From NCBI GenBank assembly GCA_963575745.1, contig CAUYUJ010000079.1:1-64000 (forward strand): DNA of 64,000 bases, given 5' to 3'. This stretch comes from Prorocentrum cordatum. Its lineage: Eukaryota. The notes beneath the pieces are model-generated. The model made no database searches and had not been told where the DNA came from. It was given only the letters and a program-made list of their open reading frames with translations. Below are positions 32,484-64,000 of this stretch, in pieces; position 1 is the first letter of the stretch, and each line of letters begins with the position of its first letter. The position numbers and the translations under genes were made by a program.

Positions 32484-32656
32484 CACGGGGAGGCGGAGGA
32501 AGAGGCACAGGGAGAGGGAGAGGGAGGAGGCTGCGCAACTGTTTTGTCTCAAGCCCGGGGCGGGGTCGCTCCCCCGCCACACGACCCCGAGACGAACCCC
32601 GCTCGTTGCTGGGACTCCCTCCGGGGACGACCGGCACGAGTCGCGGGTGACTCTGG

Positions 32657-37360: not shown

Positions 37361-37531
37361 TCCCCACCCACCAAACCACCCCAACTCAACCCGAAGGCTC
37401 GGATTTGCCCTCGATTTCTAGTTGGGGGGGGGGTCCGGGAACATCGAAAAAACATATATGGAGCCCATACCCCCCCCCCAACCCGAAATTCGGGTCTTCG
37501 GGTTGGGTTGGGGTGGTCTGGTAGGTAGTCA
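37361..37531 (-). mobile_element. 171-bp MITE, family B (inverted copy), with 5-bp TSD GACTC
   Basis: Reverse-complement homolog of 28007-28176; GACTC at 37356-37360 and 37532-37536. Confidence 0.85.
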
Positions 37532-37917
37532 GACTCCAGGCGCGCCTTCCCCTCCTCCCATCGGGCGTGCAAGAGCTCTCCTGCCGGCCCGCACGATCGG
37601 CTCTGGCAGACTCCCAGCTGCCCCGATGGCGCATCCACGTGTTGCCAGAGGGCGTCCTGGGCCGACCCTCCTCCTCCTCCTCCTCCCTCTCCTCCTCCTC
37701 CTCCTCCTCCTCCTCCTCCTCCTCCTCCTCCTCCTCCTCCTCCTCCTCCTCCTCCTCCTCCTCCTCCTCCCCCCCTCCCTCCTCCTCCTCCCCTCCTCCT
37801 CCTCCTCCTCCTCCATCCTCCTCTCCTCCTCCTCCTCCTCCTCCTCCTCCTCCTCCTCCTCCTCCTCCTCCTCCTCCTCCTCCTCCTCTTCTCGTCCAAC
37901 CTTCACTTGGATGATGG

Positions 37918-38001
<84 letters not shown>

Positions 38002-38329
38002 CGACCGGCTGGCTCAAATGGCCCCCGCAGCCTCCAAGATGGCCACACGACGCCCCAAGAGGCCCCCATGGTGGCTCCAAGAGGGTCCCGCCACGGCCCA
38101 AGAGGGCTCCAAGACGCTCGAGATGGCCTCCAAGACGGCGCCGCGACGCAGCCCAGCGACGGCACCTCGACCAGACAGAGGACGAAGTCCTTGAGATTTC
38201 GAGCTATCAGAGGACCCCGATCAAGAAGCCCCCGGGCTCGGAGACTCCGAGCTATCAGCAGATCTCCGTAGCATCTATCGGTTCAAGCTTCAGCAGCTTA
38301 CGCGACGACTTCCCAGGCAACAGCTCATA

Positions 38330-38446
<117 letters not shown>

Positions 38447-38454
38447 GCAGCGTG

Positions 38455-39036
38455 ATGTCCGCGCTCGGCGCCGCGATGTCCCCGGAGCCGGAGCGGCGGC
38501 GCGCCGCCGACGGCGCGGCTTACACCCGCCTCGAGTTTGAGCAGCACTACGGCGTGAGCCGCGGGCGCCGCGAGTGGGATCAGGCATCTCCGTGCGAGAT
38601 CTCCTCCGAGCTCGTGGATGTCGGCCCCCTTGCCATCGCCCCCTTCGCGGCCGACCGGGCGTCCGCGGGCGAGGGTTTCTTTCTGGACGGCGACGCGTTC
38701 ATGATCGGGCCGGAGTCGTACGGGTACGTCTACATGGCCACGACTGCGACCTGGCACGGGTATCCCATGTACCAGTGCCATCGCGGTCGCGATTCGAAGC
38801 CCGGCGTCGTCTTCCTGCTGTTCAATGGCGCGCGCTGGGAGGCCGGCCACGTCGCGGGGCTTGCTCCCAACTCGGCCGAGGAGGTTGCGCAGCGGATGCA
38901 GCCTGCCTTCCGCGGCCCCATCGGCGAGGACATCCGCGCGGCTGGCCGGCACCTGTGGGAGTGCTTCGACGACCGCCGGGGGGCGTGGTACCCGCCTTCC
39001 AGCTTCCGCACCACGGCGCTGCGGGGGCCTGAGTGA
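38455..39036 (+). CDS. Hypothetical protein with an N-terminal ERRxAxDGxxYTxxEFxxxYG...W motif
   Basis: 193-aa complex ORF with strong GC3 codon bias; relict SL at 38265-38287. Confidence 0.7.
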   Translation: MSALGAAMSPEPERRRAADGAAYTRLEFEQHYGVSRGRREWDQASPCEISSELVDVGPLAIAPFAADRASAGEGFFLDGDAFMIGPESYGYVYMATTATWHGYPMYQCHRGRDSKPGVVFLLFNGARWEAGHVAGLAPNSAEEVAQRMQPAFRGPIGEDIRAAGRHLWECFDDRRGAWYPPSSFRTTALRGPE

Positions 39037-39867
39037 GGCGCGCGGGCTCCGACGTCGCCGCGGGGCGGACGACCCGCGCGCGTCGCCGGGACTCCTCAGG
39101 GACGACCGGCGCGCGTCGCGGGGACTCTTGCGCTGCGCATGTCATCGGCCGCCGGCCTTTTTCGTCTGCGCGCCGCGGACGGCCCCCCCGCGCGTTGCCG
39201 GGGCGCTCGCGCGCTGCTCTGTCCGGCGCCTGGCTCGTTGTGAGCCGCTTGCTTCTGTTCTGCCCCGCGCCGCGGACGACCCGCGCGCGTCGCCGGGACT
39301 CCTCCGGGACGACCGGCGCGCGTCGCGGGGACTCCGCGGCGCGCTCTGCCAAGAGCTGCCAGCTTGGGCGTCTTCCGCAAAAAGCTGCTGCCGGATTTCC
39401 CTGGGTCTCTGAGGGGGGCGCGTTCGCCGTGGCGGCGCGTGGGCACCCTCCCCGCGATCGCCCGTCGCTCGCCGCGGATTATCTTGGAAGCTCGGGAGGC
39501 GGCCCTGGGATCCAGAGCCATCGTTTACATATCGGGTGTCGGGAGATTTCCACATTCTCGCCTGCTCAGCGTGGACTGCCGAGATCGCTTCGAGATCGCG
39601 TCGAGAGGACAGGCCACCCCAGGAAATATCCAAGGCGATTGAGAGACGGCCCGGAGGGGGGCTCGAGAACCCGCGAGACGGCGCCAGCGTCGCCGAAGTC
39701 TTCCGTCGCCATTCGGGATCAGGAGCGCGAGGTGCCCCGCTGTTTCTCGCTCGGAACGAGTCGCGGGGACTCCGCGCGGCGCCGGCGCTTCCACCAGGAC
39801 GACCCTCGCTGGTTGCTGGGACTCCCTCCGGGGACGACCGGCGCGAGTCGAGGGGGCTCCGGGCGGC

Positions 39868-42680
39868 ATGGCGCTCGGCGGGTCGGGGTCCTGGGCGGCG
39901 CGCCTGCGGGCGCATGCTGGGTGCGAGGACGCCCTGGCGGGAGTGGGGCTGCAGACGGCGGCGGGCCAAGCAGGGTACGAGAGCAGCCTGCTCTCGGTGC
40001 CAGGCTTCCTCCAGGCCCACGTCGCGCGCCAGTGGTTCCACGAGCTGGCGAGCATCGCGCATCGGGACGCAGTCTTCATCGGCCGCAGCCCGGAGACGCC
40101 GTCCACGTTCGTCGACCCGTTGCCGTGGAGGTACCGCACGGCGCAGTACTTCCGCGAGAAGTGTATCTGCAAATGCGACTACGCAGGCCAGCCTTGAACG
40201 ACCCCCCCTCGCTCCTCCGGGCGCGTCCCCGCGCCGCCCCCCCCCCACCCCCCATCGCTGCCGTCGCCTCCCGCGCTTCCTCCGCAGGCACCGCCAAGCA
40301 CTCCTCGCACACGTACGGCCCGGCCAGTTTCTTTTGGAAGGTCGAGGATTTCTTGATGGAGGCCATGGGGCTCGCGTCGCGCGAGGAGGTCCCAGACCTC
40401 TGGGTCGTCAATGTTTACGACGACCCCGCCAGGCACATCCGTCGTCGTCGTCGTCGCTGGCGCCGTCGTCGTCGTCGTCGCCATCGTCGTCGCCGTCGTC
40501 GCCGTCGATCGTTCGAGGTCGGAGGGCCGAAGACTTTGGAAGTTCTCGAAGCGTCGGCGCCGGGCTCGCGCGGACCCCCCGCGAGCCCGGCGCCGAACAG
40601 CAGCCCTCGGGGGCTCGAGGTGCACGCCGCCGCCGCCGCTGCCGTCGTCGTCGTCGTCGTCGTCGTGGTCGCGGTTCTCGCCCACCAGGCACATCGCCTG
40701 GCACAGCGACGACGACGACCTCTTCGACGCGATCCGCAGCCCCGCGGACATCGTGTCGCTCTCCCTCGGCGCCGACGGCCTGTTCGCTTTCCAGGTCAAG
40801 CCGAGGGGCCCGCTGGCCAGCGACGTGCTCGGCGCGCAGGAGCGGGGCATCCGCGGCGCCGTGGCTCTGGCGTCGGGGACGCTGGCTCTAATGTCCGGGC
40901 GTTTCCAGCGGGACTTCCAGCACGCGACCATCCCGAGCTGCGAGTGGGACACAAGCTGGGCCGCGAGCTTGCCGGCGAGGCAGCGCTGCCGCGTCGCGCC
41001 GGGTCCAGGGGCGCCCCGCATCAACCTCACTGGCCGGTGGGTGCGGAGGTCCGAGGGGAAAGAAGCGACGCCGCCCTCGCCACTTGGGGATGGGGCGGGG
41101 GTGGGGGGGGCACTTCCCACGAGGAGGTCCACGATGCCTTTCCGGGCTGGAACTCGAGGGTGTCTCTCGAACGGGAGGGGGGCGAATGCAACGCCACGAG
41201 GGAGAATCCGCCTGGGCCTTACGCCCTGGTGATGGCGGCGTCGCTTTCCCCCGTTCCCTCGAAGGCAGAACGCGGCGTGCCCGAGGCACAAGGGCCCTTC
41301 GCCGATGGCGGCGTTCCTGCAGCCAGCGCCAGCGCCCGCGCCGGCGCGCCCGCCCGCGCCCCCTCCGGGCGACGGCGAGGCGGTGCAGCGGCTTCAGGCG
41401 GAGGTGGGCGGGCTGCGGGCGCAGGTAGCGACGCTCACCGCCGACGTTGACCGCAGGCGGTCCGCGGAGCTGGACTACCTACAGTCATTTCGCGAGCTCC
41501 AGGGCAAGCTGCTGCGAGCCGAGGAGGAGCTGGCGAACGCGCAGGCTACCGCCCAGGTGAGCGACGCCTGAAAACTTAGAGATCCGACGTCATGAAAAAT
41601 TCGTGACGGCGGTTTTTCGTTGCTTTCAGTCCCGGAGGCCCTCAACGGGCCCTTGGACCGTCAAAAATCAATTCAGGGCGAGAAACCGGCCCCGGGGAAG
41701 TCGTCGAGACCTCCGGGGACTTCCGGGGGCCACGCGTCGAAAAGTTCATGACATCGAATGTCTGGGACTGGGTCGACCGCGCGGACATGGCGCGCGAGTT
41801 GCCCGCGTAAGGTCGCACGGAGCGCCGCGCCGCTGCCCCGTGCTCCGCGGAATTGACTGGCCCGCGCGAGCCACCGCGCAGGGTGCAGCGCCGCCGCGCA
41901 TGAGACCCCGTCTTCTCCGTCGCTCAGGCAGACGCGCGCGGGCCCGCCGCCGCCTCTGCGCCGGCGAGCAGCGCGGCGGGCGAGGTTCCTGGGGCTGCCG
42001 GTGACGGGGGGCTCTCGCAGGGCGTGGCTCGCGTCGCGGCTTTGCGCGCCTCCTCCAACGCCGACTTGCTCCTGCACGTCGCGGATCTCTGGGAGGGGCT
42101 CCGGGGCTTCACCGTCGCGGAGCAGGCCTCGCAGAACGACCCGCTCTTCAGGCTCGGCCGCGGCACCCGGGAGTCGCGCACCCACCGCGTCTTGATGCCC
42201 TACGGTTGCCTCCAGGCCTGCTTGCGGAGCGTGGCCTCGCGCCACGTGGAGGCGCTCCGCGAGTTCGGGTGGTTCGCCTTCGACCTGGAGCCGGGCGTCG
42301 CCGAGTCGCTCTGGCGCTTGAAGGGGGGGCGCGCGTCGGAGCGGTTGCAGGCGACGACCGTCGAGGGGGGGCCCTGGGACGGCTCCGAGACGCACCTCCG
42401 GATCATCGCGTTCGAGCTGGGCTCCGCGTTCGACGAGGGGGTGGCGCGCTGCCTTCCGCGCAAGCCGCCTGCCCGCCGCGGCGGTCGCGAGGCAGCGGCT
42501 GAGGCCGCGCACCTTGCCTGGTGCGCACTGCTGCGCGCCGACAAGGTTCGGCAGTGGGAGGACCTGGAGCAGGGGCGGATGGTTCTCCCGGCTCTGCCCC
42601 TCGAGTGGGGCCCGGTAGACTCCCTGGAGCGGATGCCGTGCGCTGTGTGGCTGCACGTCCCAAAGAGAGTCTGCGGGTAG
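39868..42680 (+). CDS. alkB: AlkB-family (ALKBH2/3-like) 2OG-Fe(II) dioxygenase fused to a coiled coil and an unknown C-terminal domain; exons 39868-40186, 40288-40432, 40689-41048, 41265-41556, 41928-42680 (622 aa)
   Basis: The spliced frame is continuous and gives VNVY, WHSDDD (HxD), IVSLSLGA, GTLALMSG.FQ..FQH and RINLTGR. All introns end AG|G with GC/GC/GT/GT donors and correct phases. Confidence 0.85.
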
Positions 42681-43375
42681 ACGCTCTTCTCTGGCCGCGT
42701 CAGGGGACGACCCCCGCCAGTCGCCGGGACTCCCTCGCGGGACGACCGGCGCTGGTCGGGGGGGCTCCGCCCGGCGAGGCTTGGACCGCTCTGCAGAGGA
42801 CGACCCCCGCCAGTCGCCGGGACTCCCTCGCGGGACGACCGGCGCTGGTCGGGGGGACTCCATCCCCGCGGCAGACCCCGCCAGTGGCCGCGCCGCTCGC
42901 TCCTGCCGAAAAAGGAACACTCCGCACACCCATCGCTCTCGAGCCGCCCGCGTAAGATTGTCGCGCGCGCGGTCTCAACACCGCGCCGCGCGCCTCGCAA
43001 GCTAACTGCGTGGGCCACCGGGTAAGGTCGCAGCGTCCTCGTTCCCTGAAGGGTGCTGCTCACGTTATACCAGTGTCGTTCGGTCCACCTCGCCGCTGCG
43101 CCTGGCGCCTGGGTCGCGGGTCAGAGACCCCTTACTCGGGTGTCGCGGGATGCTTATCGGGTGCCCCCTGGGGAGGCGACGAGGGCATGCGTGAGGGTAA
43201 TTCTTGATCGGGTACCATGGGGGCTTCCTGGAGGCCTCGCGGAGCAAGGGGGAGGAGGAGGAGGAGGAGGAGGAAGCGTCGACGCCGTCGTGGCTCAAGC
43301 CTTGTTCGGGTTCGAGTTTGTGGCGGCACTTCCGGCCCTTCCAGCGAGGTGCTGAGTTCTTCCCCGCAGTATCTC

Positions 43376-45570
43376 ATGGCGACCAGCTCGCAGTCGCAGC
43401 AGCAGCAGGGCCGCGACAAGCTCCCGCGCGACATCCGCGCGCCCGGGCCGCTGCGCAACGACGCGGTCGTGGGGCGCATTCTCCTCGTGGAGTCCCGCTC
43501 CCTGGGCTCGGCCGCTGCGACCGGCGAGGGTGCCCCGAGCCAGGTCGCCGCCACCGGCGCCAGCAAAAGCAAGGGCAAGGGCAAGGGCAAGGGCAAGGGC
43601 GCCCGCTCCGACGCCGTCCTGGAGATCACGCTGTGCGGGGGGAAGAGCCCGGCGGACATCATAATGTTCCAGGCGTGGGAGTCCAACGTGCGCGCGCGCC
43701 TGCAGGGCAGCGCGGGCGTCGGGGACACGGTGCGCATCAGGCGCGGCCTCGTCGTGGCGCACACCGACAAGACCCGCTTCCACTGCACCTCGCGCTCGCC
43801 CATGTTTCTGAAGGCGCAGAGCGACACGACCATGGAGCGCATCGAGGACAAGCCAGAGTTCTTGAGGTACCACCCCGTCACGCCCATCTCGTCGCTGCCG
43901 CTGCTGCCGCCCCGGTCTCCGGTCTGCCTCGCTGGCCGCGTGGTGGAGGCGGGCGAGGTGCAGAAGGTGGAGACGCCCGACGGCGACACCGACGTGCCGG
44001 TGGCGCACCTGGCGCTCCGCGTCTCGGAGGACTTGATTCGTGTGAATTTCTGGCGGGAGACGGCCTCGATGTTGAAGAGCCTTGGCAAGGGCGACCTCAC
44101 GTTCCTCTGGGGCGTGGCGAAGCAGTGGCCCAGGGCCGGCGAGGACCCGAAGACGCAGGTGGAGCTCCGCGCCACGGCGCGCACGAGGGTGCTGAGCTGC
44201 CCCGAGCCGCTTCCGGGCACCCTCGCGAGCACGCCGGCCGACCTGTCCGGCGCGAAGATCTGGTCTGCGCGCCTGTCCAGGGAGAGGAAGGATTACGCCA
44301 CCGCCAAGGGGACGTCGATGTCCTTGTCGGTGCTGGAGGGTCTGATGGCCTCGAAGGTGATCCGCGATCTCGACCGCGTCTTCGAGGTGCCTAGCGTGTT
44401 CCTGGAGTTCGGCTCGCAGCTGACGTACCCCGGGTGCGGCACGTGCCTGAAGGCCTGGCGCGAGGAGGGCACGATGCCGTGCCAGTGCCCCGCTGCGGAG
44501 CGTGTCCACCTGTGGCGCGCCAGGCTCGGTCTCCGAGACGCCTCGGGCCAGGTCCAGGCCGTCTGCTTCAAGGCGCTCGAGTCCGTCGTGGATGTCTACG
44601 GGGACGTCTCCGGCGACGCCGAGAAGGCGCCGGAGCATTTCAGCTCCGAGGAGGTGGCGGAGCGCCTGGCCAGCTCCGTCGCCGCGGTGCCCTTCACCGC
44701 GCGCATCACGGTGGCGGCGGACGGCTACAAGGAGGCCATGGAGGCGACGGTCCAGCTGCTCACCCCGACGTTCTCGACCGCCGGCGTCAAGCACCCGTTG
44801 AAGCCCGTCGTGCAGGTGGGCCAGTCCGCGGGCGCGTGCCCGCCTTTCCGCCTGGCGCAGACGGTATACTCGGAGGGCATCGGCATGACGGAGGCCGACG
44901 GCAACGCGTACGAGTCGTTCCGCGCCCTCGTGACGTTCGCAGACGACGCCGGCGGCCTCGGCGCAGACGGCCGCACGGCGCGCGAGGTCAACTGCGCCCT
45001 CGACGCCGGGGTGGAGGCGCTCAAGTACAGGCTGGAGGTCGACGGAGACGGCTCCATGGCGCATGCCCTCGGCAGCGCCGAGAAGAGGAGCTCCGCGCAC
45101 GTGCTCCTGGCGTGGAGGTCGACGGAGGTCATCGGGGTGATCGCGATGTTGCCGGTGCCGGGCGAGAGCTTCGACGCCTTCGGCAGGTTCTTCGCCAGGG
45201 AGGTGGAGCTGTGCAAGGACTCGGCGGCTCGCGGAAGGGGGCAGCGCGGGGGGGGGGGGCTCCCAGGGCCCAGGGAGGCGAGGAGCTTCGTGGAATGCAG
45301 AGCGCTTCCTGGATGGCCCAAGAGGCTTCCAATGAGTTGTCCGGGAGGGCGGGAGTGCTTTCACGAAGCCCCCTGCTCTCAGAGGGGGCCGCCCCCCTGG
45401 CCTTGCCCCCTTGCGCGCGCCGCCGCGAGGACTCGGCGGCCGCTGGCTCGTCCAACTCAGCGGGCTTCGACGCGACGCCGACGAAGGTCTTGACCGCGGC
45501 CGAGGCGGCGAACGTGACCTCCCCGCCGCTGTGGAAGGTCCGCAAGACGCTCGCTGGGCCCACGGCGTGA
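43376..45570 (+). CDS. RPA70-like multi-OB-fold ssDNA-binding protein; exons 43376-45217 and 45430-45570 (660 aa)
   Basis: OB-like segments (PISSL...VCLAGRVVEAGEV...IRVNFWRETA) and a DBD-C-like Zn ribbon YPGCGTCLK...CQC...WRARLGLRDASGQVQAVCF. The intron is flanked by a 13-nt direct repeat. Confidence 0.75.
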
Positions 45571-46517
45571 CAGGATGGCGCGGGTGCTCGGCAGGCCGCC
45601 CGGGCAAGCCCTGCGCGTCGCCGCGATCCTTCCCTGGAGGGCGAGCGGCGCGCGTCGGGGCGATCTCAGGCTGGTCGACGTGCCCATAGGCTAGCGGCGC
45701 AGAGCGCTGCTCTGTTCCACCCCGCGCTGCCCGCTGCCTTGGCCAAGACATATTTCCCCCCCTTGGAGGGCGTATTTTGCAGTCGGCAGGGCATTATCTA
45801 GCTTCGTGGCCCAGAGTAGCGGCCGATGCGCCGCGTGTCCTGGACTTCCACTGGTAGGGCAGCGTCCTGCAGCAAGAGTTTAAGTATTGTGGACGACCCT
45901 CGCGCGTTGCCAGGACCCTCCTCCGGGGGCGACTGACACGCGTCGACGGGACTCCACAGTCCGATCGGAGCGCCCTTGCCGCGCGCCCGCAGCCGCTCGC
46001 CCTCGCCCTGCAAGGCAACCACAAATGCGCGCCCGGCTTGGAGCGGGATCTCTGGAGGTGCGGAGAGAAGAAGGAAGGGAGGAAGGAGGCGGACACGACA
46101 CGGCGGCGCCCGGGTTTAGGTCACCGCGGGAGAGGCGGGCAGGGACGCAACGCACAGGGGAGATTAGGAGACGGTCGGGGGATCACGGCGCAGGGGGCGG
46201 ACACGCGATAAAGCGGCAAACAGTGTTAGCGCCAAACGAGTAGGTCTGGCAATTGCGCCGCAATGGAAATCTCCCGGACCTTGCCATCCATAGGTACAGT
46301 GGAGCCTATTTCGGGCTCTCCCTGCCTGGGGACATCTTGGCTGGCCTCTTGGGGCCATCCTGGAGCACATCGGTCAAACCGGCATTAATCTGCAGGCGCC
46401 CGTGGGGCCGTCGTGGAGCAGGCCTCGCGGGGCCCCTGTCGAGGCTTTCGTCTTGCTCGAGCCCGCGAGTGCCTCAGCCGGCGCGCCCCGCCGACAACCC
46501 GCGGAAGACCAGGCGCC

Positions 46518-47162: not shown

Positions 47163-48045
47163 GGCCTCGCCGGGAAGCCTCCCCGCCCTTTCTCCTCGCG
47201 CCGCGGCCCTGCGGTGAGGCGCGCGCGCCGCGCGGCGTCAGTCGACGCCCAGGACGACCCTCGCGCGTTGATGGGATCCCATTCGGGTGGGCGACCGTCA
47301 CGCGTCGGGGGGACTCCTCACCTGTTTTCGCCCACGCAGTTTTTTTCTACCCCTCTGTCCGCGACGCAGGGGGGCCCGTGCGTCTGCCTGCCGCCTTGCT
47401 GTGTCTAGCTGCCGACCTTTTCAACCACCCGTGGTGAGCGACCTCCGCGTGTCCCTGGAGTTTCGCCAGGATGGGCAGCGCGGCCGCCCGCGTGAGGTTA
47501 GCCGCATGCCGATTGCGTAGACGTTTGCCTCGAAGCGCGGCCGACCTGCGCGCGTCGCCGGAACTCCTGCGGGACGCCCGGCGCGCGTCGCGGGGACTCC
47601 GCGCGTTATTCTGCCTGGGGCCGCCGCCGTCGGGTCGCGAGGAGAAAAAAGGGGAGAGCGATTAGGGAAGGAAAGAGGCACGAAACGACGGCGGTCAGGG
47701 CTCGGGCCACCGCAGGACAGTCAGGCAAGAGCAGTGCACGACGGCACCTGGGAGAGAGGAGACCCCTTCCGCTAACTTTGTGTCAAAAGTTTGTTGTTTT
47801 TGAAAGAAGCGGGGTCTGGGTCGAGCCCTGAGATTTCCGGCAAACTCCCCCCCCCCCTTCCGTGTCCGTAAACATGGAGGCCCGAGCAGGCGCCGCCGCG
47901 CGTTCCGGCGCGCGCCCACCGCCATCTTCGACGGACGACCCCCGCTCGTGGACGGGACTCCCCGCGCGGGACGACCTTCCCGAGTCGGGGGGACTCTGGC
48001 TCGCACGAGCGGGCCATCGCCGCGCGCCATCGGGGCCCCGCGCGG

Positions 48046-48999: not shown

Positions 49000-49275
49000 G
49001 ACGCTGGGTGAAATCTCGTCGTCGTCGTCCTCATCCTCGTCGTCGTCGTCAAGCCGCCACGAAGCTTCGAGCTGCGTCGGCGCGGGCGGCTCCCAACCCC
49101 TCCCCTCGGCGCCCCGCGAGGCCGCTGCGGGGGGCCCCCACGAGCCCGCGGCGCTGTGCGCGGCGCTCGCGGCGGGGGCTGTGGCGGGGCGTGGGGGGCA
49201 CGGGCAGGCCTCTTTCCCCTCCCGTCCCTCGGCCCCTCCCACACACGCACCTGTACATGTGCACGCGCGCGCGCC

Positions 49276-55058: not shown

Positions 55059-55721
55059 GTCGCCAGGAGGAGGAGGAGGAGGAGGAGGAGGAGGAGGAGG
55101 AGCGGAGAAGAGGGCAGGCGGGGGGAGAAGGAAATGGCGCAGGACGGAGGATCTCGAATGGGGGAGAGAGGAGAGGGGTGAGAGGAGAGAGGTGGGTGGA
55201 GGGAAAGGTCAGGACGCATGGGAGGGAAGAGAAGAAGGTACGGGAGGAGCCAGGCATAAGGGAAATGGAGGAGGGAGAGCACCATCCCAGCCAAACCAGT
55301 ATCGACCCCCCCGTCATCCCTGTCAAATTATGCCGCGCGCACACGCGTTGATATTTAAAGACATGTCCCATGATCCCATGAGGCCCCCAAGAGGGCCCCA
55401 AGACGGTGCAAGATGGCCTCCAAGACGTCTAAGATAGCCCAGGATGGACTCCACGACGGCCAAGATGGACTCCAAGACGGCCAGGATGGCCTCCAAGACG
55501 GCCAGGATGGCTCTATCTGGCATCCAAGACGGTCCAAGGTGCTCTCCAAGACAGCCTTATGAGGGGGGCGGCAGGGGAAAGCTCGTCATTGTCTTCGTTC
55601 AGGCACGGCCCCTGGCAGACGCTGGAGCTTTTCCCCCCGCAAGGCGAGGAAGGCGAATCGTGCGCCGCGGCGCGGGGGACGGGGGGCACACGTCAGGGGT
55701 TTCACCCCCCCCTCTCTCGAG

Positions 55722-58700
55722 GAGCTGCGCGCCCTGGCAAGCGCCTGCGTGCGCGGAGCGCCGCTGCCCGCGGAGGACGTCGGTGGCGCGGCGCCCGCGC
55801 CCGCCCGCGTGGACCGCTGGTCCCCGCACGCCTTCTTGGACGCGTTCCTCGAGATGCACTGGGTGGACTTCAGGCTGGGGAGGCACGGGGACGCGAGCGA
55901 GGCGCTGTCGTTCGTCGTGGATGACACGCAGGGTCTCCGCCGTCTCTTCCAGACAGGATGCGGCGAGGAGGTCATGCTGAGGCTGCCAGCTTTCGTGGAC
56001 GGGGCAGACGACGGCGACGACGCCTTGTCGCCGCAGGACTTCTTCCTCGACGGGGGCGCCCAGAGATTGGACGCGCGAGAGCTGCTCCGCCGCGGCGTCT
56101 CCATGGGCGGGCGACTGCGATCGAAGCCCGAGCTGCTGGCGGTCCACGTGCCCCAGAGATGGGAGCGAGGCGACGGCACGGCGCTCTTCCTCGGCAGCTG
56201 CGACATCGCGCCCTACTGGAGCGAGCTCCCAGAGGTGGTTCTGAGGGCGGGGGGGGAAGACGTCGCATACCGCCTGCGCGCCTACGTGCAGTACATCCTG
56301 CCCGAGGGATCGGACGTCATCCCATCCCACGTCCTGAGTGACCCGCAGGGCCACTTCGTGGCCCACTTCGAGGAGGACGGGAGCTGGTACACTGCGGACG
56401 ACCTGGGCGATCGGCCGCACGTGGTCCGGTGGGCGCCGGGCACCGAGCACAAGATGCCATTCGTGATCTTCCTCGAGAGGATGGACTCCAGGGCGGCCGG
56501 CGCCGATGCCTGCCCGTGGCCGCCCGGGCCAGTCGTCGACGACGCGGAGGGCCTGGGCGACGGCGGCGACGTCGACGCGGACGGCGAGGACAGCTTCGGC
56601 CCCGACGGAGCGCCCGAGGAGGAGGGCGGGGCCGGCGACGCCAGCCATTCGGGCGCACGGAAGCGGCCCGCGGCGTCCGCGAGGAGCGGCGCCCCTGCCA
56701 AGAAGCGGCTCCGCCTCCGAGGGAAGCAGAGCCGCGACGGGAGGCAGCAGATCCGCGATGGGAGGCAGCAGAGCCGCGACGGGAGGCAGCAGAGCCGCGA
56801 CGGGAGGCAGCAGAGCCGCGCTGGGTGGCTGCAGAAGGATAAGCAGCGCGGTTGCAAGCCGGAGGATGTGCTCCGGCAGGGGCGGAAGCCGAAGGGCAAG
56901 GGCGACAACGCCGACGGGTCCAGGCAGGACGCCCAGAACAACGCCACCGCGCCTGTCCTGCGCAGCAGCAGGGAGGCGAAGAGCTTGCAGACCGCCAGCG
57001 AGGAGCGCCGGAAGTGCGGAGACCTCTTCTTGCTCTTGCACCTGATGGAGCCGCTGGCCGCTGCCGATGACCTGCTGGAGCACTACCCTGATTTCTTCGT
57101 CTACGCGGGCGACGACTGCACCCGCCGATGGGCGACGTTCCTGCAAGCGCCCGATCGGTCCGACAAGTTGGCCGGCAGGTTGCGGGAAGCGCTCGGGGTC
57201 ACGGAGAACGAAATATCCGACGCCAAGCGCCGACTGGAGAGCGGGGAGTGGCACGGGCACCACGTCGCGGAGCTCCTGGACGAGCGCCTGGACTCCGCCC
57301 ACGGCGCCCACTCCGTGGCGGCCACAGTCAGGCTGGCGGCGGGCGACGCGTCGGCCGCGCTGGGCGACGGCAACCCGCTGAGGGCGCACCTGGCGGAGGC
57401 GTGGCAGCGCAGACCCTGCAACCGTGGGCCGCCCCGGCACGCCGCCATGCCTGCCCGCCTTCGGGATCGCTCCGAGTGGTTCCAGTGCCCCGCGCCTGCC
57501 CTGCAGTATGCCTGCCGCTTGTGCGAGGCCGAGTTCCCCAACAGGGAGGCGTTCAAGGCGCACCAGGGCAGAGTCCACGGAGGGCAGCGGTGGTACCAGG
57601 CGCAGTACGTGGCGCGGTGCGAACTGGAGCCCTACCAGCCGTCGCCGACCGAGGAGCGCCAGGCGAGCGAGCGGCGGGGAATTGCGCTCGACCCCCCCGC
57701 CCTTTCCCCCTGGGATAGTCTCTTAGCGCTGGCGCTCCCAGCGTCTGCGTTAAGGGCATCGAGTTTCTCCGGGCGGGGTGACCGCCTAGATCTGGGGGTC
57801 GGGCTGCACTTCCTGGTCGCGCCGCAGGTTGTTGCCAGGTTCCACGTCTCCCAGTGCTGCGCCACCGTGGAACCCGTGGACGAGACGTTCGTCCCGAAGC
57901 CCGAACCGGAGGTGCAGAAGCAGCTGCTCCACGCGGCGATCGTCGGCAGCATCGCTGGCAGGATCGGGCAGGGGGGCTTCGCGGAGGAGATCTCCCGGCA
58001 GGCGGCCGGCGCGGCGGAGTCGGCGGCCCGCGATCAGGCCGCGTGCCAGGCGAGGGAGCCCCGTGCTTTCCGGGCCTGCGTCTGCTGCGCCATGCAGCAG
58101 TGGTCCGAGAACCTCCACTCGGAGTTCCTGGTCGGGGACAAGTGCGGCATAAAAAACCGGGCCCTGTTCGCGGAATGCCTGTCGGCCGAGTGGTATCATC
58201 AACGATGGCCCCTCATACCGCGCGAGGAGCTGATGTCGTCTGCCGTGGACTTCCCACACGAAGACAGCGAGGGCTCGCCGACGTGCACGAAGATACTCCT
58301 GCACAAGAGGCGCGTGCCGCCAGAGGCGCTCACAGGGGAAGCGCCCGTGAGAGTGTGCGAAGCTTGCAGGAGAGACCTGTGGTCTGATCATCCCAAGGTG
58401 CCGCTCATGGCCCTGGTGAACGACCTCTGGCTGGGCCGCCACCACCCGCTGCTCAGGAAGGCCGCTCTCGCGCACCAGATGCTGCTCGCGCTGGGCCGCG
58501 TCGTGTCCACGAAGATCTACCTGTCCAGCAAGGGCGCCGACAAGGCCGTCCGGCAGGAGCAGGAGTCATGGAGGCAGAAGTTCCTGCAGTACGCCATGCA
58601 GGGCACCGCCATCGTGTTCGGGAACGGGAACGTGGACCACGCGATGCGGAGCTTCCCGCCGGAGCCCGACATGCTCAGGGACACGTTCGTGGCCGTCTTC

Positions 58701-61700
58701 GCGGGCGCCGACGACGACGAGGACGGCGCCCCCCTGACAGAGGAGCAGAAGCAGGAGAGAGCCTTGAGAGCCATGAGGGAGGAGGTGGCGTTGCACGTCG
58801 ACAAGGCGGAGTACGACGCACAGGCGCGGTTGTTGAAGCAGCACAACTACGTGTACAATGACCCGGGCGTGCAGTACCGATCGGACCTCGTGGACAGGTT
58901 CCCCCCGCAGCCTGGCGTGCCCGACTGCATGCTGGCCTGCGCGAAGTATGTCCCCACGGACGCGGCGTTGGACGACGTTGCGCAAGCGCAAGGGCCCGCC
59001 TCGGCCACCACTGGCGCGCAGGCCGACATGGGCGCGGCCGCCGGGGACGCGCAGGAACTGACCAAGTGGCTGTCCGTCCTCGAGGACCACATGGACGACG
59101 TCAGCGAGATCACGTCCCTGCCGGCACTGCAGGGCATGCTCGAGAGGATGGAGAGCCAGGCGGGGCGCGTGGTGGCCAACGAGCTGATGTCCCGGCTCGA
59201 GAACGAGAGAGGCGAGGATGGGGCGCTGCAGCTGGACGAGATCGGGCGTCACCGCCTGCGGGATCTCTGCAAGGAGTTCCACGCGCGCTGTCGGAAGATC
59301 TCCCCGGGGGAAGACGTGGCGAAGCTGCACTGGCGCGTCCAGAGGCTGGAGACGAACAACTGCCAGGCGGGAGAGGACGCGGGCGACCTGGCGCGACCTG
59401 CAGGAGTCGCGGGGACTCCCGCCGAGGACGACCCGCGCTCCTTGCAGGAACCGCCCGGCCCAGACGGCCAGCGAAAGGCGAGGCTTGTGGTGCCCACTTC
59501 GAAGAAGGCGGAGACCTGGTGGGACCCGAAGTACTGGTCGATTGCCAGGCCCACGGACTTCTGCTACGGGGACTGCGCATGGGGCCTCGGCGATAAGGAG
59601 GGTCGGCTCTGCTTCAGCGTGGCGCACTTCATCCAGAATCTTCTCACGCGGGAGGAGATGGAGTATGACGTTCCCGGCGACGAGGAGAAGTACGTGGCCA
59701 GGCCCATCAATCGTTTCCGGAGCTCCTGGTACGACGTGCACCTGCTGCACTCCTTCTGGAGAGTTACGGAGACGACCAACAGCACCTACACTTTCATGAA
59801 GACGCCCGGGGCGTTCGGGGCCGCTCGCGCCTGCGCAGACATCACGCCAGAGATGATCGAGCAGGTGCAGCTCAGGGCGCAGCAGACGGGCGGGAAGGCA
59901 ACGCTGCACGGCATCCTCAAGGACAAGGACACCCCCAACAAGGTGCGCCAGGCCTTCGCCACCCTGGGCCAGGCCACTGCCAGTCAAGTCGGGTCCGACG
60001 GACACAGGCGCGAGCTGCGCGGAGAGGGCGAGGCGTATACCCTGCGCTTTGGCCCGCCCGTCCTGTTCGTCACCCCGAATCTGGCAGACACCAAGCAGCC
60101 CCTGATCCTCATCGTGCAGGGGGAGGAGTACAACTTCAACGCCGACCTGTCCGAGGCGGAGCAGGTCACGTTGAGGGAGATGTCGCAGCGCCTCGCCGCG
60201 GATCCCGTGGGCCAGGCCGTGGTATTCGAGCTGATGATGAGGCTGTTTTTCGTCCACGTGCTCGGCCTGCGCCGGGAGACCGTCGGGTGGCGGAGAGGAG
60301 AAGTTCGACAGATTTCGGAGCACTGGGTCTCCGACGGCGTGGCGGCCGACCTCATGGGCGTCCCCACTGTGTTCGGCCCCCTCGCGGCCGCCTTCGGCCC
60401 TGTGGAGGCCCAGGGCCGCGGCTCGCTGCACCCGCACATCCTCATCTGGCTGCTGCAGGGTCAGCTGCGCGTGCTCCTCGACATGCTGCAGCGCGACCAG
60501 GCGCGCTTCCAGGAGCGCTTGAACCTGTGGATGCGGCAAGTGGTGCAGGCCGTCGTCGCCACTCAGCAGAGCGCTGTGGAACTGCTGCCCCTGCATCTGC
60601 AGGGAGGCGAGAACAAGTGCGGAGCCGAGGTGCCGCCGCTCCCGTTCGGGCCCAACGAGAAGCGGCATTGCAGGGCCGACGGCGGCAAGGAGACAGCGAC
60701 GCCAGAGCAGCTCGGTAAGGAAGGCGAAAAAAGAGAGGATCTGTATTACTACGATCCCTCGTCAGACGACTACCACGAGGCCATTCGCGCCGATCTGCCG
60801 CTGCGCGACACCAATGGCGGGATCGTGGGAGACGCGGCGACGTGGACAGAGCAGCGGGCCGCGGAGACCAAGAATTACTGGGCGCAGCCGCTCTCCAGCA
60901 GCGCCTCCGGCATTTTCCCGAGGTACCGCGGCGGATGCACCCTGGCAGGGTCCCTCCCGAGCGACGAGTGGATTCGCGAGATGTGCCACGACGTGCGCCA
61001 GCTCGTCATCGGTTGCGGCATCCACGTCTGCAGCCCCTCCTGCTACAAATACCATTCGGACAAAGCGCGCGGCTCGCAGATCTGCCGCCACAACTTCTAC
61101 AACCTGGTCACATTGTGCACATGGCCCGAGGATGGGGACTCCCAAGAGTGCCGGCTCCGGACGCGCGGGAAGGCGCTGCGTGGCTGCATCGGCATATTCC
61201 TGGAGACGGAGTACGGCATGGCCGGGCGCATCATTACCTTCCAGCTCCACCCTGGGGAGACCTCCACCAAGTACGCGGCGGTCGTCTCGGCGCGGTGCAA
61301 CGTGGACGTGCAGGACATGAGACGGGTACTGCCCCCGCGCCTGTGGATGGATCCGTTAGAGCTGGAACCTCCAGCGAACGAGGGGGACCGCAATAGCTAT
61401 AACCATGGCCTGTACCCTCAGCGATATGCCAACTTCTCAGTGGGCGCCCGAGAGGATTGGGGGTGGTTCCAGCACCTGAACACCACGTCCGAGGAGAAGT
61501 GGGAGCTCGTCGTAGTCACCGACTGGCACAAGATCTACAGAGAGCTCGCGAACTGCGTCAGCCCGATCGTGGACGGTGACGACGCTGCGCGGGCCGATCT
61601 CCAACGCGACCTGGAGCGGCACGCGATCGCCACCTTCGTGGATGCTCACAACACGAGCTATTACGTGAATTCGTACACCACGAAGGTGAACCCCAGCATG

Positions 61701-64000
61701 GACGACGTGCTCTGCAAGCTCCTCGACGGCGTGCGCCGCCTCAAGAGCCAGTGGAACGACAGGGAGGTGCAGGGCGCGGGCGACGCCAGCGACGAGCCCC
61801 AGTTGACCGCTGCAGCGAAGCGCAAGGAGGATTTCAAGCGCACGCTGCAGGTGTTGTCCCGCTTCGAGACCTGCTTCCGCAGGGCCTCCTGGAAGAGCGG
61901 CTGCGAGATGGTCTTCCCCATGCTCTTCGGGCACCTCTCCTTCATGACGCACCGCTGCTGGAAGGTGTCCATGCGGAAGTCCATCTACCTCGCCGCGGAG
62001 TCCTGGCGCAGGCGGCACGGCCACGCCGACACCGCGGAAAGCCCACCCGCCGCCTCGATCACGTACGCGGTACCCGGCACTGGACAGCAGGTCGCGATGC
62101 CGGGGTGGAGCGAGGTGCAGCGCGAGGGCGAGACAGTGTACGTCAGCCCCGACGGCGAGGAGTTCGACACGATCGAGTACGCGCACCAAGCGTTCCAGAT
62201 TGCGAACGCCAGCGGCGGCTCGCTGCGCGACGTGACTAAGGCTTTGAACAAGATGCGGGAAGGCGAGGAAGAAGAGCAGCCCGATGCACCGGGGCCGACC
62301 GTCGAGGGCCTCGCGCAGGGCAAGTTCAGGGGCGCCGTGTTGAGCCAGCACGACGACTGGATGCATCGCGGAGATCACCCTATTGTCCGAGACATGAGCT
62401 TGTACGTCTACAGCATCTGGGTGTACCGCGTGGAACTGCCGTTGCACGCCCTTCCGGCCGGGGAGCTGGAGCCCGAGGGCAGCGGGGGGCGCACCCTGCA
62501 CGTGGACATCGCCTTCGACTCGTCCTACTCGGCGGCGCGGAACTGGACGCAGAGGCTGGCCGCCGAGCCGCGCATCCCGAAGCCGGACGGCTTCCAGTTC
62601 GTGAGCGCGGAGTCGAACGTGGAGACGCACTACCTCATGAAGTCTGTGCTGCTGCGACCGGTGCACCTGCCGGACGCCGACGGGCCCAACGACACGAAGG
62701 AGCTGCGCTACCTCCGCGCGTACGAGCACCTGTGCGCGGCGCCGGAGGGCGAGCCGGAGTGGCCGGCGCAGCCGGCGGGGGAGGGCGTCTCGGGCCCGTT
62801 CCAGCGCGGGTGGGAGTCGTTCGCCACCACCCAGGAGCAGCTGGCGAAGACGGCGCGGGCGAAGTGCCTCAAGAATGACGTGGGGTCGTGGGCAACTCCC
62901 AGCATCTGGAACACGCAGGAGGTCGAGGCCGCGCTGCGCGAGAAGCACAGCGACCGCGGCGAGGACGTGCAGCCTCCTTGTCAGTGCGCCCAGTGCACGG
63001 AAATGGGCAACTGGCTGGACAGTATGCTGACGGTGCAGGAGTACCTGGCCCTGGAGAGCACGAAGACCGCGGCCAACTTCGACGGCATCTCCAAGGCGAG
63101 GGCTTCGAAGCCGAAGAGGCCGCAGAAGGACGACGTGCAGGTCGCCGAGGCCCCCGTGTTCCAGGAGGGCGCCGAGGACTCGGGTGCGGGCGCCGCGCAG
63201 GTGGAGGCCCAGGGCATCCGTGCTCAGGAAGGCCTCGCGAAGCTGGGCGCCAACACGGCACTGGAGCATCACTTCGACCCCGAGACGCTAGGGCAGATCT
63301 TGCGCTTCGACACCGCCGAGCGCACGCAGGCCTTCGTGAAGGAACTCAAGAAGGCCGCTACGATGATGGAGAACGGCGCGCTGCCCGGGCCGACTGACGC
63401 CGACGCATCGCGGCGCGCTGCCCGCGCCCTGAAGGACAACGTCCTCGCTCCGTTCAGGGCCCTGCGCGACCTCGACGCAGACGAGCTGAAGAGCTTGGTG
63501 GAGACCCAGCGGAAAAGGTTCGCCAAGGGAGGCACGATGGATGCGGACGTGCCCGTGGCCGACGCACCCGCGCCGGACGACGTCGGCGCAGCGGCCGCTG
63601 GCGCGATGCCAGCCGAGGCGGCGCAGGCACGGTGGGAGCCTTCGGAGGAGATGCAGCGGCCCAGCGACTTCGTCAAGCTCCTCGTTACAAAGTTCGAGGA
63701 CGGCGTGGTCAACCCGAGAACGGGGCGGCAGGAGCCCCGCCCTCTGAAGCCAGACCAGGCCCTGTTCGTCACGGCGTTCGCGAACGCCTGCAACGTGGTG
63801 TGGGACGAGGAGCAGAAGATCGAGGACGGCAGCATGGCCAAGCACGCCAAGCGGAAGACGTTCCAGTTCCTGCTCCTCGGCCAGGGCGGCAGCGGGAAGA
63901 CCGCCATGGTGCAGGAGATCGTGCTGCCGGCCATGGACGCACTGTTCCCTGTGGAACCGGGCAAGGCGAAGTCCACGCAGATAGTCTGCGCGAAGTGGTC
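55722..64000 (+). CDS. RepHel gene exons 2-3 (probable intron 57663-57827): USP His box, C2H2 finger, DUF6570-like region, HUH Rep (Helitron_like_N) and start of a PIF1-type helicase; runs off the window
   Basis: One frame with no stop to the window end. Motifs: GHFVAHF...WYTADD (56349-56402), CRLC...HQGRVH, CEAC...PLMALVNDLWLG, FGPPVLFVTPN (~60050-60080), VEAQGRGSLHPHILIW (60402-60449), YYVNSYTTK (61659-61685), GQGGSGKT (63879-63902). Confidence 0.9.
56722..56820 (+). repeat. In-frame 21-bp tandem repeat encoding GRQQSRD units
   Basis: GGGAGGCAGCAGAGCCGCGAC, about 4.5 copies, within the RepHel linker. Confidence 0.85.

What the first reader, a model, noticed from the sequence alone, without database searches (positions are those of the whole stretch)
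39868..42680. AlkB dioxygenase fusion hidden across five ORF fragments
Manual splicing yields the complete HxD...H...RxNxTxR catalytic set, followed by a coiled coil and a ~220-aa unknown domain. ALKBH2/3-type enzymes demethylate 1mA/3mC, lesions typical of single-stranded nucleic acid. A role in protecting Helitron ssDNA, or in oxidising or erasing base marks alongside the aGPT enzyme, is inference.
Basis: partly seen in the sequence, partly recalled or inferred. Interest (0 to 1): 0.7.

Follow-up and report, generated by a model that had tools for sequence, protein, structure and literature searches.

The report
AlkB dioxygenase fusion gene beside Helitron
This is a real, apparently intact split gene for an AlkB-type base-repair oxygenase joined by a helical linker to a conserved domain of unknown fold, and it lies upstream of a Helitron-like transposase, a setting where AlkB domains have already been reported.

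Summary
Window 39868-42680 (+) carries a five-exon gene of 600 or 620 codons. It runs colinear, end to end, with a 585-aa uninterrupted homologue from a marine assembly (P0011).

- **Catalytic domain:** exons 1-3 encode an AlkB-family domain. Pfam 2OG-FeII_Oxy_2 scores 39 bits against a cut-off of 31.2. HxD, the distal His and RxNxTxR are all present.
- **Linker:** exon 4 encodes a Pro-rich linker and a roughly 60-aa helical segment. A coiled coil is plausible but not shown.
- **C-terminal domain:** exon 5 encodes a roughly 200-aa domain. It defines a small family of 39 representatives among 1.84 billion proteins. The model is confident (pLDDT 82.7), but no Pfam, PDB or BFVD match was found.
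- **Splice junctions:** junctions 1, 2 and 4 are supported by homology and codon-position composition. Junction 3 is unresolved. No RNA data were available.
- **Setting:** the gene lies 12.9 kb upstream of, and co-oriented with, a DUF6570 + Helitron_like_N ORF. The HELIANO survey (2024) already lists 2OG-FeII_Oxy_2, DUF6570 and UCH as domains of type-2 Helitron-like elements (HLE2), so the Helitron link is plausible and not new.
- **What is new:** the obligate fusion to the unknown C-terminal domain.

The parts
39791..39866 (+). Copy of a ~76-nt covarying hairpin repeat, ending just before the start codon
   Evidence: Covariance model R1, 85.5 bits; fold; alignment and pair counts.
39868..40186 (+). 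Exon 1: start codon and the N-terminal part of the AlkB domain, up to ...CKCDYA(G)
   Evidence: Aligns to P0011 residues 16-101 (tblastn piece 39922-40188). The N-termini align. GC3 is 0.90.
40187..40287 (+). Intron 1, 101 nt, GC-AG, with the 7-nt direct repeat CGCAGGC at both ends
   Evidence: Among the cuts allowed by the repeat, only GC..AG is a recognised intron type (read).
40288..40432 (+). Exon 2: ...TAKHSSHTYG...VPDLWVVNVYDDPA(R)
   Evidence: tblastn piece 40287-40424 matches P0011 residues 101-149. The spacing between the NVY and WH motifs equals that of P0051.
40433..40688 (+). Intron 2, 256 nt, GC-AG, with the 11-nt direct repeat CCAGGCACATC at both ends; contains (CGT)n
40689..41040 (+). 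Exon 3: catalytic core with HxD (40702-40710), the distal His (40921-40923) and RxNxTxR (41017-41037). The 3' end is uncertain (41040 or 41100)
   Evidence: Pfam 39 bits; ALKBH3 alignment. P0056, 82% identical, continues through ...RWVRRSEGEKATPPSP. GC3 falls after about 41050.
41041..41322 (+). Intron 3 (GT-AG; 282 nt, or 222 nt if it starts at 41101). It removes the single in-frame TGA at 41230-41232. Boundaries are unresolved
   Evidence: Exons 3 and 4 lie in the same frame. Both models are in frame. GC3 is 0.67-0.75 here.
41323..41556 (+). Exon 4: Pro/Ala-rich linker plus a ~60-aa helical, possibly coiled-coil, segment
   Evidence: Homologues have a non-conserved E/Q/L/R-rich segment of variable length at the same place. 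Weak Pfam coiled-coil hits. The heptad test was not significant.
41557..41927 (+). Intron 4, 371 nt, canonical CAG|GTGAGC ... pyrimidine tract, CAG|G
   Evidence: A DNA contig of run X1 runs through it (record 5), so that run is genomic DNA.
41928..42680 (+). Exon 5: low-complexity linker, then the conserved C-terminal domain (~200 aa) and the stop codon
   Evidence: Close relatives at 76-99% identity. Family of 39 representatives. AF2 model pLDDT 82.7. No fold match.
42699..42867 (+). Two copies of the same hairpin repeat; the first starts 19 nt after the stop codon
   Evidence: R1 scores 82.8 and 89.7 bits; folds.
43208..45493 (+). Next gene downstream: a 761-codon open frame with a sub-threshold OB-fold hit
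   Evidence: PF01336, 22.8 bits against a cut-off of 27. No PDB sequence match.
55563..63998 (+). Helitron-like transposase ORF (runs off the window) with DUF6570 and Helitron_like_N
   Evidence: 44.7 and 55.3 bits, both above their cut-offs. Coding-type GC3 throughout.

Best explanation
An apparently intact five-exon nuclear gene encodes a roughly 600-aa protein in three parts.

1. An AlkB-family Fe(II)/2-oxoglutarate dioxygenase domain with all metal- and 2OG-binding residues.
2. A Pro-rich linker and a helical, probably oligomerising, segment.
3. A conserved ~200-aa C-terminal domain of unrecognised fold that, wherever enough sequence is available, is joined to an AlkB domain.

Shown here: the gene structure, the domain identity, the conserved fusion, and its place in a co-oriented G+C-rich block upstream of a Helitron-like (type 2, DUF6570-bearing) transposase.

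Inferred:
- The gene is an accessory gene carried by that element.
- The enzyme oxidatively removes N-alkyl lesions (1mA/3mC type) from single-stranded nucleic acid. This follows the known AlkB chemistry, in which HxD...H hold Fe(II), R...R hold 2-oxoglutarate, and the hydroxylated methyl group leaves as formaldehyde.
- The C-terminal domain and the linker provide targeting or assembly rather than catalysis.
For: **Gene and domain**
- One open frame after splicing, colinear with P0011 from N- to C-terminus.
- tblastn piece ends coincide with the modelled exon ends at junctions 1 and 2.
- GC3 is 0.86-0.92 in exons against 0.65-0.79 in introns.
- Pfam 2OG-FeII_Oxy_2 scores 39 bits against a cut-off of 31.2, and 53.2 bits in P0011.
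- WHSD and the distal His align to ALKBH3.

**Fusion**
- Of the 5 family representatives of 380 aa or more (39 in all), 3 carry an AlkB part in front of the C-terminal domain: P0011, P0017 and P0031.
- So do P0042 and the cluster members P0047 and P0051.
- In locus L001 the whole fusion is a single ORF, 1044-2786.

**Element link**
- The DUF6570 + Helitron_like_N ORF lies on the same strand, 12.9 kb downstream.
- A UCH Cys-box hit sits at its cut-off, and an OB-fold hint lies in between.
- HELIANO reports 2OG-FeII_Oxy_2, DUF6570, UCH and Ssb-like_OB almost exclusively in HLE2, with RPA upstream of RepHel in HLE2 (PMC11417382, section 22 read; Table S11 row seen).
- A covarying hairpin repeat occurs 12 times, always on the + strand. 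Eleven copies lie between 39061 and 59460: they flank the AlkB gene and its neighbours, and one lies inside the transposase ORF.
- The AlkB exons and the transposase ORF share the same GC3 style.
Against: - No transcript evidence, so junction 3 is a choice between in-frame models, and a TGA stands in frame at 41230-41232.
- The tail R[YW][IV]xNHxC that four homologues carry after RxNxTxR is not seen in the window.
- The element's ends were not found. No second copy or whole genome was available, so membership in the element rests on context.
- The one distant relative with flanks (L001) has a neighbour ORF with no likeness to anything in the window.
- The OB-fold hit is below its cut-off, and the UCH hit covers only 29 residues.
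- One clade (P0031/P0047) has lost HxD (Q-x-H) and RxNxTxR (QITIIGK) but keeps the C-terminal domain. Catalysis is therefore not required in all members.
- The coiled coil is not shown.
Confidence: 0.55

Rival explanations
1. This is an ordinary cellular gene of the host: a lineage-specific AlkB repair or RNA-demethylase paralogue that merely lies next to a Helitron-like element.
For: - It has four spliceosomal introns and host-like codon composition.
- The family occurs in assemblies of very different G+C content; L001 is AT-rich.
- In L001 no Helitron-like domain is seen within 4.8 kb.
- The element's ends are not mapped.
Against: - The 25-kb co-oriented block contains AlkB, an OB-fold hint, a UCH hint and DUF6570-RepHel, matching the HLE2 accessory set reported by HELIANO.
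- The strand-specific hairpin repeat is shared between the AlkB flanks and the transposase ORF.
- Several 76-82% identical fragments exist in assemblies. They fit multiple copies, but they could equally be orthologues.
Confidence: 0.3
2. This is a decaying captured copy (a pseudogene): the in-frame TGA between exons 3 and 4 is a real nonsense mutation, and only a truncated AlkB domain, or nothing, is made.
For: - Exons 3 and 4 lie in one frame, interrupted by a single TGA.
- Both candidate donor sites for intron 3 (GTGCGG, GTGGGG) are weak.
- The NHxC tail is not seen.
Against: - All catalytic residues and all family-invariant C-terminal residues are kept.
- There are no frameshifts or stops in any of the five exons.
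- GC3 drops to 0.60-0.75 exactly across 41050-41260 and recovers afterwards, as expected of an intron.
- The linker length under the splice models (18 or 38 aa) is closer to the homologues' ~45 aa than the 112 aa without splicing.
Confidence: 0.1
3. The protein is not mainly a lesion-repair enzyme. It may read or erase a regulatory base mark, or act as a non-catalytic binder, with the C-terminal domain as the functional core. It could, for example, counter host silencing of the element.
For: - The C-terminal domain is the most conserved part.
- The P0031/P0047 clade keeps it while losing the Fe and 2OG ligands.
- The AlkB domain is only distantly related to any characterised subfamily.
- There is a family-specific ~30-aa insert between the distal His and RxNxTxR.
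Against: - The window's copy and 3 of the 4 homologue lineages compared (P0011, P0051, P0017) keep the complete catalytic motifs, or the part of them that is visible.
- No reader-domain fold was recognised for the C-terminal domain.
Confidence: 0.15

Closest known systems
ALKBH3 / ALKBH2 (animal AlkB homologues; 1mA/3mC dealkylases)
   Same: Same Pfam family, PF13532. The NxY, HxD, distal His and RxNxTxR motifs are all present. ALKBH3 is the best solved relative by sequence.
   Different: The likeness is distant: E 1e-4 to 5e-4, covering 79 residues of exon 3 or about 95 profile positions. This family has a ~30-aa insert before RxNxTxR, and it carries a helical linker and a ~200-aa C-terminal domain that ALKBH2/3 lack (the size of ALKBH2/3 is taken from the chain lengths).
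2OG-FeII_Oxy_2 domain 'stably included' in type-2 Helitron-like elements (HELIANO survey, PMC11417382)
   Same: The same Pfam domain, encoded in an ORF separate from RepHel, in elements that also carry DUF6570 and UCH (section 22 read). The window shows this same set.
   Different: The paper reports the Pfam domain only. It does not describe the exon structure, the linker or the C-terminal domain. Its per-species data for this domain were not found in the supplement text held.
AlkB domains inside replicases of plant flexiviruses
   Same: An AlkB dealkylase carried by a selfish replicon whose genome is exposed as single-stranded nucleic acid.
   Different: Those are RNA viruses with the domain embedded in the polyprotein. 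Here it is a separate spliced nuclear gene fused to another domain.
TET/JBP dioxygenase genes linked to Kyakuja-Dileera-Zisupton transposons
   Same: A 2OG/Fe(II) nucleic-acid-modifying dioxygenase travelling with a DNA transposon.
   Different: A different dioxygenase family and a different transposon class.

Membership tests
AlkB family (Pfam PF13532, 2OG-FeII_Oxy_2) | Profile score above the curated gathering threshold | tested here: met
   39 bits against 31.2 on the exon-3 frame alone. Homologue P0011 scores 53.2 bits.
AlkB family (Pfam PF13532, 2OG-FeII_Oxy_2) | Fe(II) facial triad: HxD plus a distal His | tested here: met
   WHSD and FQHAT align to WHSD and WQHRV of ALKBH3 chains.
AlkB family (Pfam PF13532, 2OG-FeII_Oxy_2) | 2-oxoglutarate-binding RxNxTxR at the end of the domain | tested here: met
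   R-I-N-L-T-G-R is encoded at 41017-41037. The Pfam match reaches profile position 194 of 194. The role of the motif is recalled knowledge.
AlkB family (Pfam PF13532, 2OG-FeII_Oxy_2) | Double-stranded beta-helix fold | not tested
   The second structure job (full-length homologue, alignment A3) was not accepted.
AlkB family (Pfam PF13532, 2OG-FeII_Oxy_2) | Oxidative dealkylation activity | not testable with these tools
   Needs an enzyme assay.
ALKBH2/ALKBH3 subfamily (orthology) | Closer to ALKBH2/3 than to other AlkB subfamilies over the whole domain | tested here: inconclusive
   With the family profile, ALKBH3 scores E 5e-4, ALKBH8 0.048 and ALKBH2 0.1, as partial matches. P0011 alone finds no PDB chain at E<=1. 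NCBIfam alkb scores 20.6 bits against a cut-off of 231. No tree was built.
Accessory gene of a Helitron-like element (HLE2 type) | RepHel transposase of that type nearby on the same strand | tested here: met
   DUF6570 at 44.7 bits and Helitron_like_N at 55.3 bits in ORF 55563-63998 (+). DUF6570 is described as HLE2-typical in PMC11417382.
Accessory gene of a Helitron-like element (HLE2 type) | The gene lies between the element's mapped terminal sequences | not testable with these tools
   No genome is held, no second copy with flanks was found, and the window ends inside the transposase ORF.
Accessory gene of a Helitron-like element (HLE2 type) | Same gene at the same position in other copies or relatives of the element | tested here: inconclusive
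   The only relative with flanks (L001, 4768 nt) shows no Helitron domain and no shared neighbour. It is a distant relative on a short contig.

The most novel reading that the evidence does not exclude
The C-terminal domain is a new fold that evolved as an obligate partner of AlkB. It would sit in a protein family that travels with type-2 Helitron-like elements of marine protists. Through this domain and the helical linker, the dealkylase would be tethered to the element's rolling-circle machinery or to its single-stranded DNA, possibly to the covarying hairpins that flank the accessory genes. There it would keep the exposed strand free of 1mA/3mC lesions, or strip host methyl marks from it. 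In the clade that lost the catalytic residues, the protein would survive as a pure binding factor.
Probability: 0.15. Interest if true: 0.75.

Novelty: new variant of a known kind. Interest (0 to 1): 0.45.

Why it matters
Rolling-circle transposons expose long single strands, which is the state in which 1mA and 3mC lesions form. A dedicated dealkylase carried by the element would be a repair function serving the transposon itself, parallel to the AlkB domains of some plant RNA viruses.

The presence of the Pfam domain in Helitron-like elements is already in print. What this locus adds:
- a complete gene model;
- evidence that the AlkB domain is consistently fused to a confidently folded domain that is unknown to Pfam and to solved structures;
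- a clade in which catalysis appears to have been given up while the partner domain is kept.

That makes the C-terminal domain a concrete target for finding what these enzymes are aimed at.

Tried and rejected
- **RNA evidence.** No RNA holder was listed for 39800-42750. The four runs laid were all DNA contigs, so no splice joint could be read. The joints listed all lie in the (CGT)n low-complexity part of intron 2 and were disregarded. Near-identical short pieces do stand in three metagenome runs of three studies: X2 record 13, X3 record 17 and X4 record 32.
- **Whole genome.** None is held.
- **Longer relatives of exon 3.** None were found among 859 candidates.
- **Related loci.**
  - Alignment A2 was too diverse to search with.
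  - A1 found nothing in metagenome contigs or viral contigs.
  - P0011 found nothing in viral contigs.
  - P0031 gave only its own contig, L001.
- **Fold of the C-terminal domain.**
  - Foldseek against PDB gave 0 matches at E<=0.001; best E 0.46.
  - BFVD gave 0 matches; best E 0.30.
  - VIA-align aligned 48161 chains and found none at Z>=5. The best was Z 4.4, a partial PDZ-like match with 80 residues aligned.
  - The ESM Atlas gave no usable hit for this domain. For P0011 it gave only AlkB-family clusters at 0.87, a lead only.
- **Charge of the C-terminal domain.** Mildly basic in most members, which is not informative.
- **Heptad test for the coiled coil.** Not significant: 498 of 2000 shuffles did as well.
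- **aGPT neighbour.** No such Pfam family appeared in 107 distinct ORF translations: 5; 11; 1 not scanned before; 90 not scanned before; rescans only.
- **OB-fold gene and the 1804-aa ORF.** No PDB sequence match for either.
- **Hairpin model on L001.** Only 15.4 and 12.4 bits, and the folds were no better than shuffles, so this was rejected.
- **Rfam.** No family matched in the window.
- **Earlier findings of this scan.** Nothing by place, by sequence or by words.
  - A full-length structure prediction of homologue P0011 was not accepted.
- **Papers.**
  - 'Helitron' + 'AlkB' gave 19 papers, of which 15 were listed; none had either term in title or abstract.
  - 'Helentron' + 'oxygenase' gave 3 papers. 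One (PMC11417382) was read in sections 4 and 22; its preprint version and PMC3510045 were seen in the listing only.
  - '2OG-FeII' + 'Helitron' gave 1 paper; its passages do not link the two.
  - The strain label of P0002 gave no paper.
Full report
**What is in the sequence**

The window is a G+C-rich eukaryotic stretch, and no whole genome is held for it. Between 39868 and 42680 on the + strand, five stop-to-stop ORF pieces in three frames carry protein-like sequence. Four introns join them into one open frame of 600 or 620 codons, depending on where exon 3 ends.

| Part | Coordinates | Notes |
|---|---|---|
| Exon 1 | 39868-40186 | start codon at 39868 |
| Intron 1 | 40187-40287 | 101 nt, GC-AG |
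| Exon 2 | 40288-40432 | |
| Intron 2 | 40433-40688 | 256 nt, GC-AG |
| Exon 3 | 40689-41040 (or -41100) | 3' end uncertain |
| Intron 3 | 41041 (or 41101)-41322 | 282 or 222 nt, GT-AG |
| Exon 4 | 41323-41556 | |
| Intron 4 | 41557-41927 | 371 nt, canonical GT-AG |
| Exon 5 | 41928-42680 | stop at 42678-42680 |

**Support for the splice model without RNA**

- *A distant homologue.* P0011 is an uninterrupted 585-aa protein from a marine assembly. tblastn gives four pieces in the window:

  | Window | P0011 residues |
  |---|---|
  | 39922-40188 | 16-101 |
  | 40287-40424 | 101-149 |
  | 40690-41043 | 152-274 |
  | 42096-42668 | 405-584 |

  The piece ends fall within 1-2 nt of modelled junctions 1 and 2. 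None of the 56 proteins fetched hits the window anywhere else. In the full alignment the spliced protein is colinear with P0011 from the first residues to the last. The text runs on across junction 1 (...CDYAG|TAKH... against ...YDYAGTRQH...). Across junction 2 the spacing between the NVY and WH motifs is identical to that in P0051.
- *Codon-position composition.* G+C at third positions is 0.86-0.92 in all five exons, with second positions at 0.40-0.57. Introns 1, 2 and 4, read in frame, give 0.65-0.79 and 0.70-0.85.
- *Intron 4.* It has a textbook donor and a pyrimidine tract.

Junction 3 is not settled. Exons 3 and 4 lie in the same frame, separated by a single TGA at 41230-41232. Two in-frame GT-AG introns are possible. 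An 82%-identical fragment, P0056, keeps ...RWVRRSEGEKATPPSP, which favours the later donor. The fall in GC3 at about 41050 favours the earlier one.

The laid runs were genomic DNA, and one contig runs straight through intron 4.

**The AlkB domain**

- The exon-3 frame alone passes Pfam's threshold for 2OG-FeII_Oxy_2 (39 bits against 31.2), matched to the last profile position.
- The best solved relatives are ALKBH3 chains (E 1e-4). WHSD and the distal His of FQHAT align to the corresponding ALKBH3 residues.
- R-I-N-L-T-G-R follows, after a family-specific insert of about 30 residues.
- A profile of the family's AlkB parts ranks ALKBH3 (5e-4) ahead of ALKBH8 (0.048) and ALKBH2 (0.1).
- P0011 alone finds no solved chain, and the bacterial AlkB model is far below its cut-off.

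So this is a clear AlkB-superfamily member with a complete catalytic motif set. It is only loosely 'ALKBH2/3-type'. I could not model its fold, because the second structure job was not accepted.

**The linker and the C-terminal domain**

Exon 4 encodes a Pro/Ala-rich stretch and a roughly 60-residue A/L/E/Q/R-rich segment. Homologues have a non-conserved segment of variable length at the same position, about 190 aa in P0047, which gives weak SMC coiled-coil hits. My crude heptad test was not significant. I therefore call it a helical linker that may form a coiled coil.

Exon 5 encodes a domain with close relatives at 76-99% identity. One, P0002, carries a EukProt label of a Pyramimonas strain. 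A profile of these found 39 representatives among 1.84 billion proteins, 22 of them at E<=1e-10. The AF2 model built on 25 sequences is confident (pLDDT 82.7, pTM 0.76). It shows a long helix followed by an alpha+beta body. It has no significant match in PDB by Foldseek, in BFVD, or among 48161 chains by VIA-align, where the best was Z 4.4. Pfam has no family for it.

**The fusion is a conserved architecture**

- Of the five representatives of 380 aa or more, three (P0011, P0017, P0031) have an AlkB part in front of the domain.
- P0042 and the cluster members P0047 and P0051 do too.
- Most other representatives are short fragments.
- In locus L001 the whole fusion is a single ORF.
- The P0031/P0047 clade has Q-x-H in place of HxD and QITIIGK in place of RxNxTxR, yet it keeps the C-terminal domain.
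- The window's copy, P0011 and P0051 keep the full set, and P0017 and P0056 keep the part that is visible.

**Context**

All recognisable genes from about 38 kb to the window's end are on the + strand. In order they are:
- the AlkB fusion;
- a 761-codon frame with a sub-threshold OB-fold hit;
- a frame whose end matches the Cys box of UCH at exactly the cut-off;
- an 1891-codon frame in a lower-G+C stretch;
- a frame of more than 2812 codons with DUF6570 and Helitron_like_N and coding-type GC3 throughout.

The HELIANO survey reports 20 accessory domains 'stably included' in Helitron-like elements. It finds 2OG-FeII_Oxy_2, DUF6570, UCH and Ssb-like_OB almost exclusively in its type-2 group, with RPA upstream of RepHel there (PMC11417382; sections 4 and 22 read, one row of Table S11 seen). 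The window reproduces that set.

A further link is a ~76-nt hairpin repeat. It has 25 pairs, 11 of them with compensatory changes among ten copies. It occurs 12 times, always on the + strand:
- it ends just before the AlkB start codon;
- it occurs twice just after the AlkB stop;
- it follows the neighbouring genes;
- it occurs once inside the transposase ORF.

I read the AlkB fusion as an accessory gene of a type-2 Helitron-like element, at roughly 60%. The element's ends are not mapped. The only relative with flanks gives no support.

**Mechanism**

By family knowledge, the HxD...H triad holds Fe(II) and the two arginines hold 2-oxoglutarate. The enzyme hydroxylates N-methyl groups on bases, which then leave as formaldehyde. 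1mA and 3mC arise in single-stranded nucleic acid, which a rolling-circle element exposes. These steps are inferred, not shown. The role of the C-terminal domain (targeting or assembly) is inference from its constant fusion and from its survival in the catalytically degenerate clade.

**Novelty**

The AlkB domain in Helitron-like elements is in print at the Pfam level. In my searches I found no description of the fusion, the C-terminal domain or the degenerate clade. I rate it a new variant of a known kind.

Noticed in passing
window 32584-32660, 39061-39134, 39268-39341, 39791-39866, 42699-42774, 42792-42867, 45596-45673, 45885-45961, 47246-47323, 47533-47606, 47927-48003, 59385-59460 (all +): A ~76-nt imperfect-palindrome hairpin repeat occurs in 12 copies, always on the + strand. 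In an alignment of ten copies, 11 of its 25 consensus pairs show compensatory double changes. It sits between the co-oriented genes, and one copy lies in frame inside the Helitron-like transposase ORF, between DUF6570 and the Rep domain. It has no Rfam match. It could be a processing or termination signal, a single-strand DNA signal of the element, or a small palindromic mobile element.
   Followed up: partly
window 40187-40287 and 40433-40688: Both GC-AG introns are bounded by direct repeats (CGCAGGC, 7 nt; CCAGGCACATC, 11 nt), so the cut site is ambiguous. Three of the four acceptors are followed by G. This pattern recalls introns created by insertion with target-site duplication (a recalled idea, not tested).
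   Followed up: no
window 49012-54687 (+): An 1891-codon frame lies in a lower-G+C stretch (0.57-0.63). By eye it starts with an endonuclease/exonuclease/phosphatase-like N-terminus and carries reverse-transcriptase-like motifs (YDMRNAFG, GGFIDDL). It looks like a retroelement nested between the accessory genes and the transposase ORF, right after the UCH Cys box at about 48880-48960. Neither Pfam nor the PDB sequence search confirms it.
   Followed up: partly
P0031 / P0047 / L001:1044-2786: One clade of the AlkB fusion family has lost the Fe(II) and 2-oxoglutarate ligands (Q-x-H for HxD; QITIIGK for RxNxTxR). It keeps the distal His, a ~190-aa helical linker and the C-terminal domain.
   Followed up: partly
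window 43208-45493 (+): A 761-codon frame directly downstream of the AlkB gene has a sub-threshold OB-fold hit. By eye it also has a C-x2-C...C-x-C cluster (YPGCGTC...PCQCP) that recalls the zinc motif of RPA70, though that resemblance is recalled. It has no PDB sequence match.
   Followed up: partly
window 37400-38470: Long trinucleotide arrays, (CTC)n, (GAT)n and (CGT)n, lie just upstream of the G+C-rich block that starts near 38 kb. The same (CGT)n motif recurs in intron 2 of the AlkB gene, and it attracted thousands of unrelated contigs when reads were laid.
   Followed up: no
window 38272-39036 (+): An open frame with protein-like sequence (…YTRLEFEQHYG…, …WHGYPMYQCHRG…) sits between the trinucleotide arrays and the first hairpin copies. 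It has no Pfam family.
   Followed up: no
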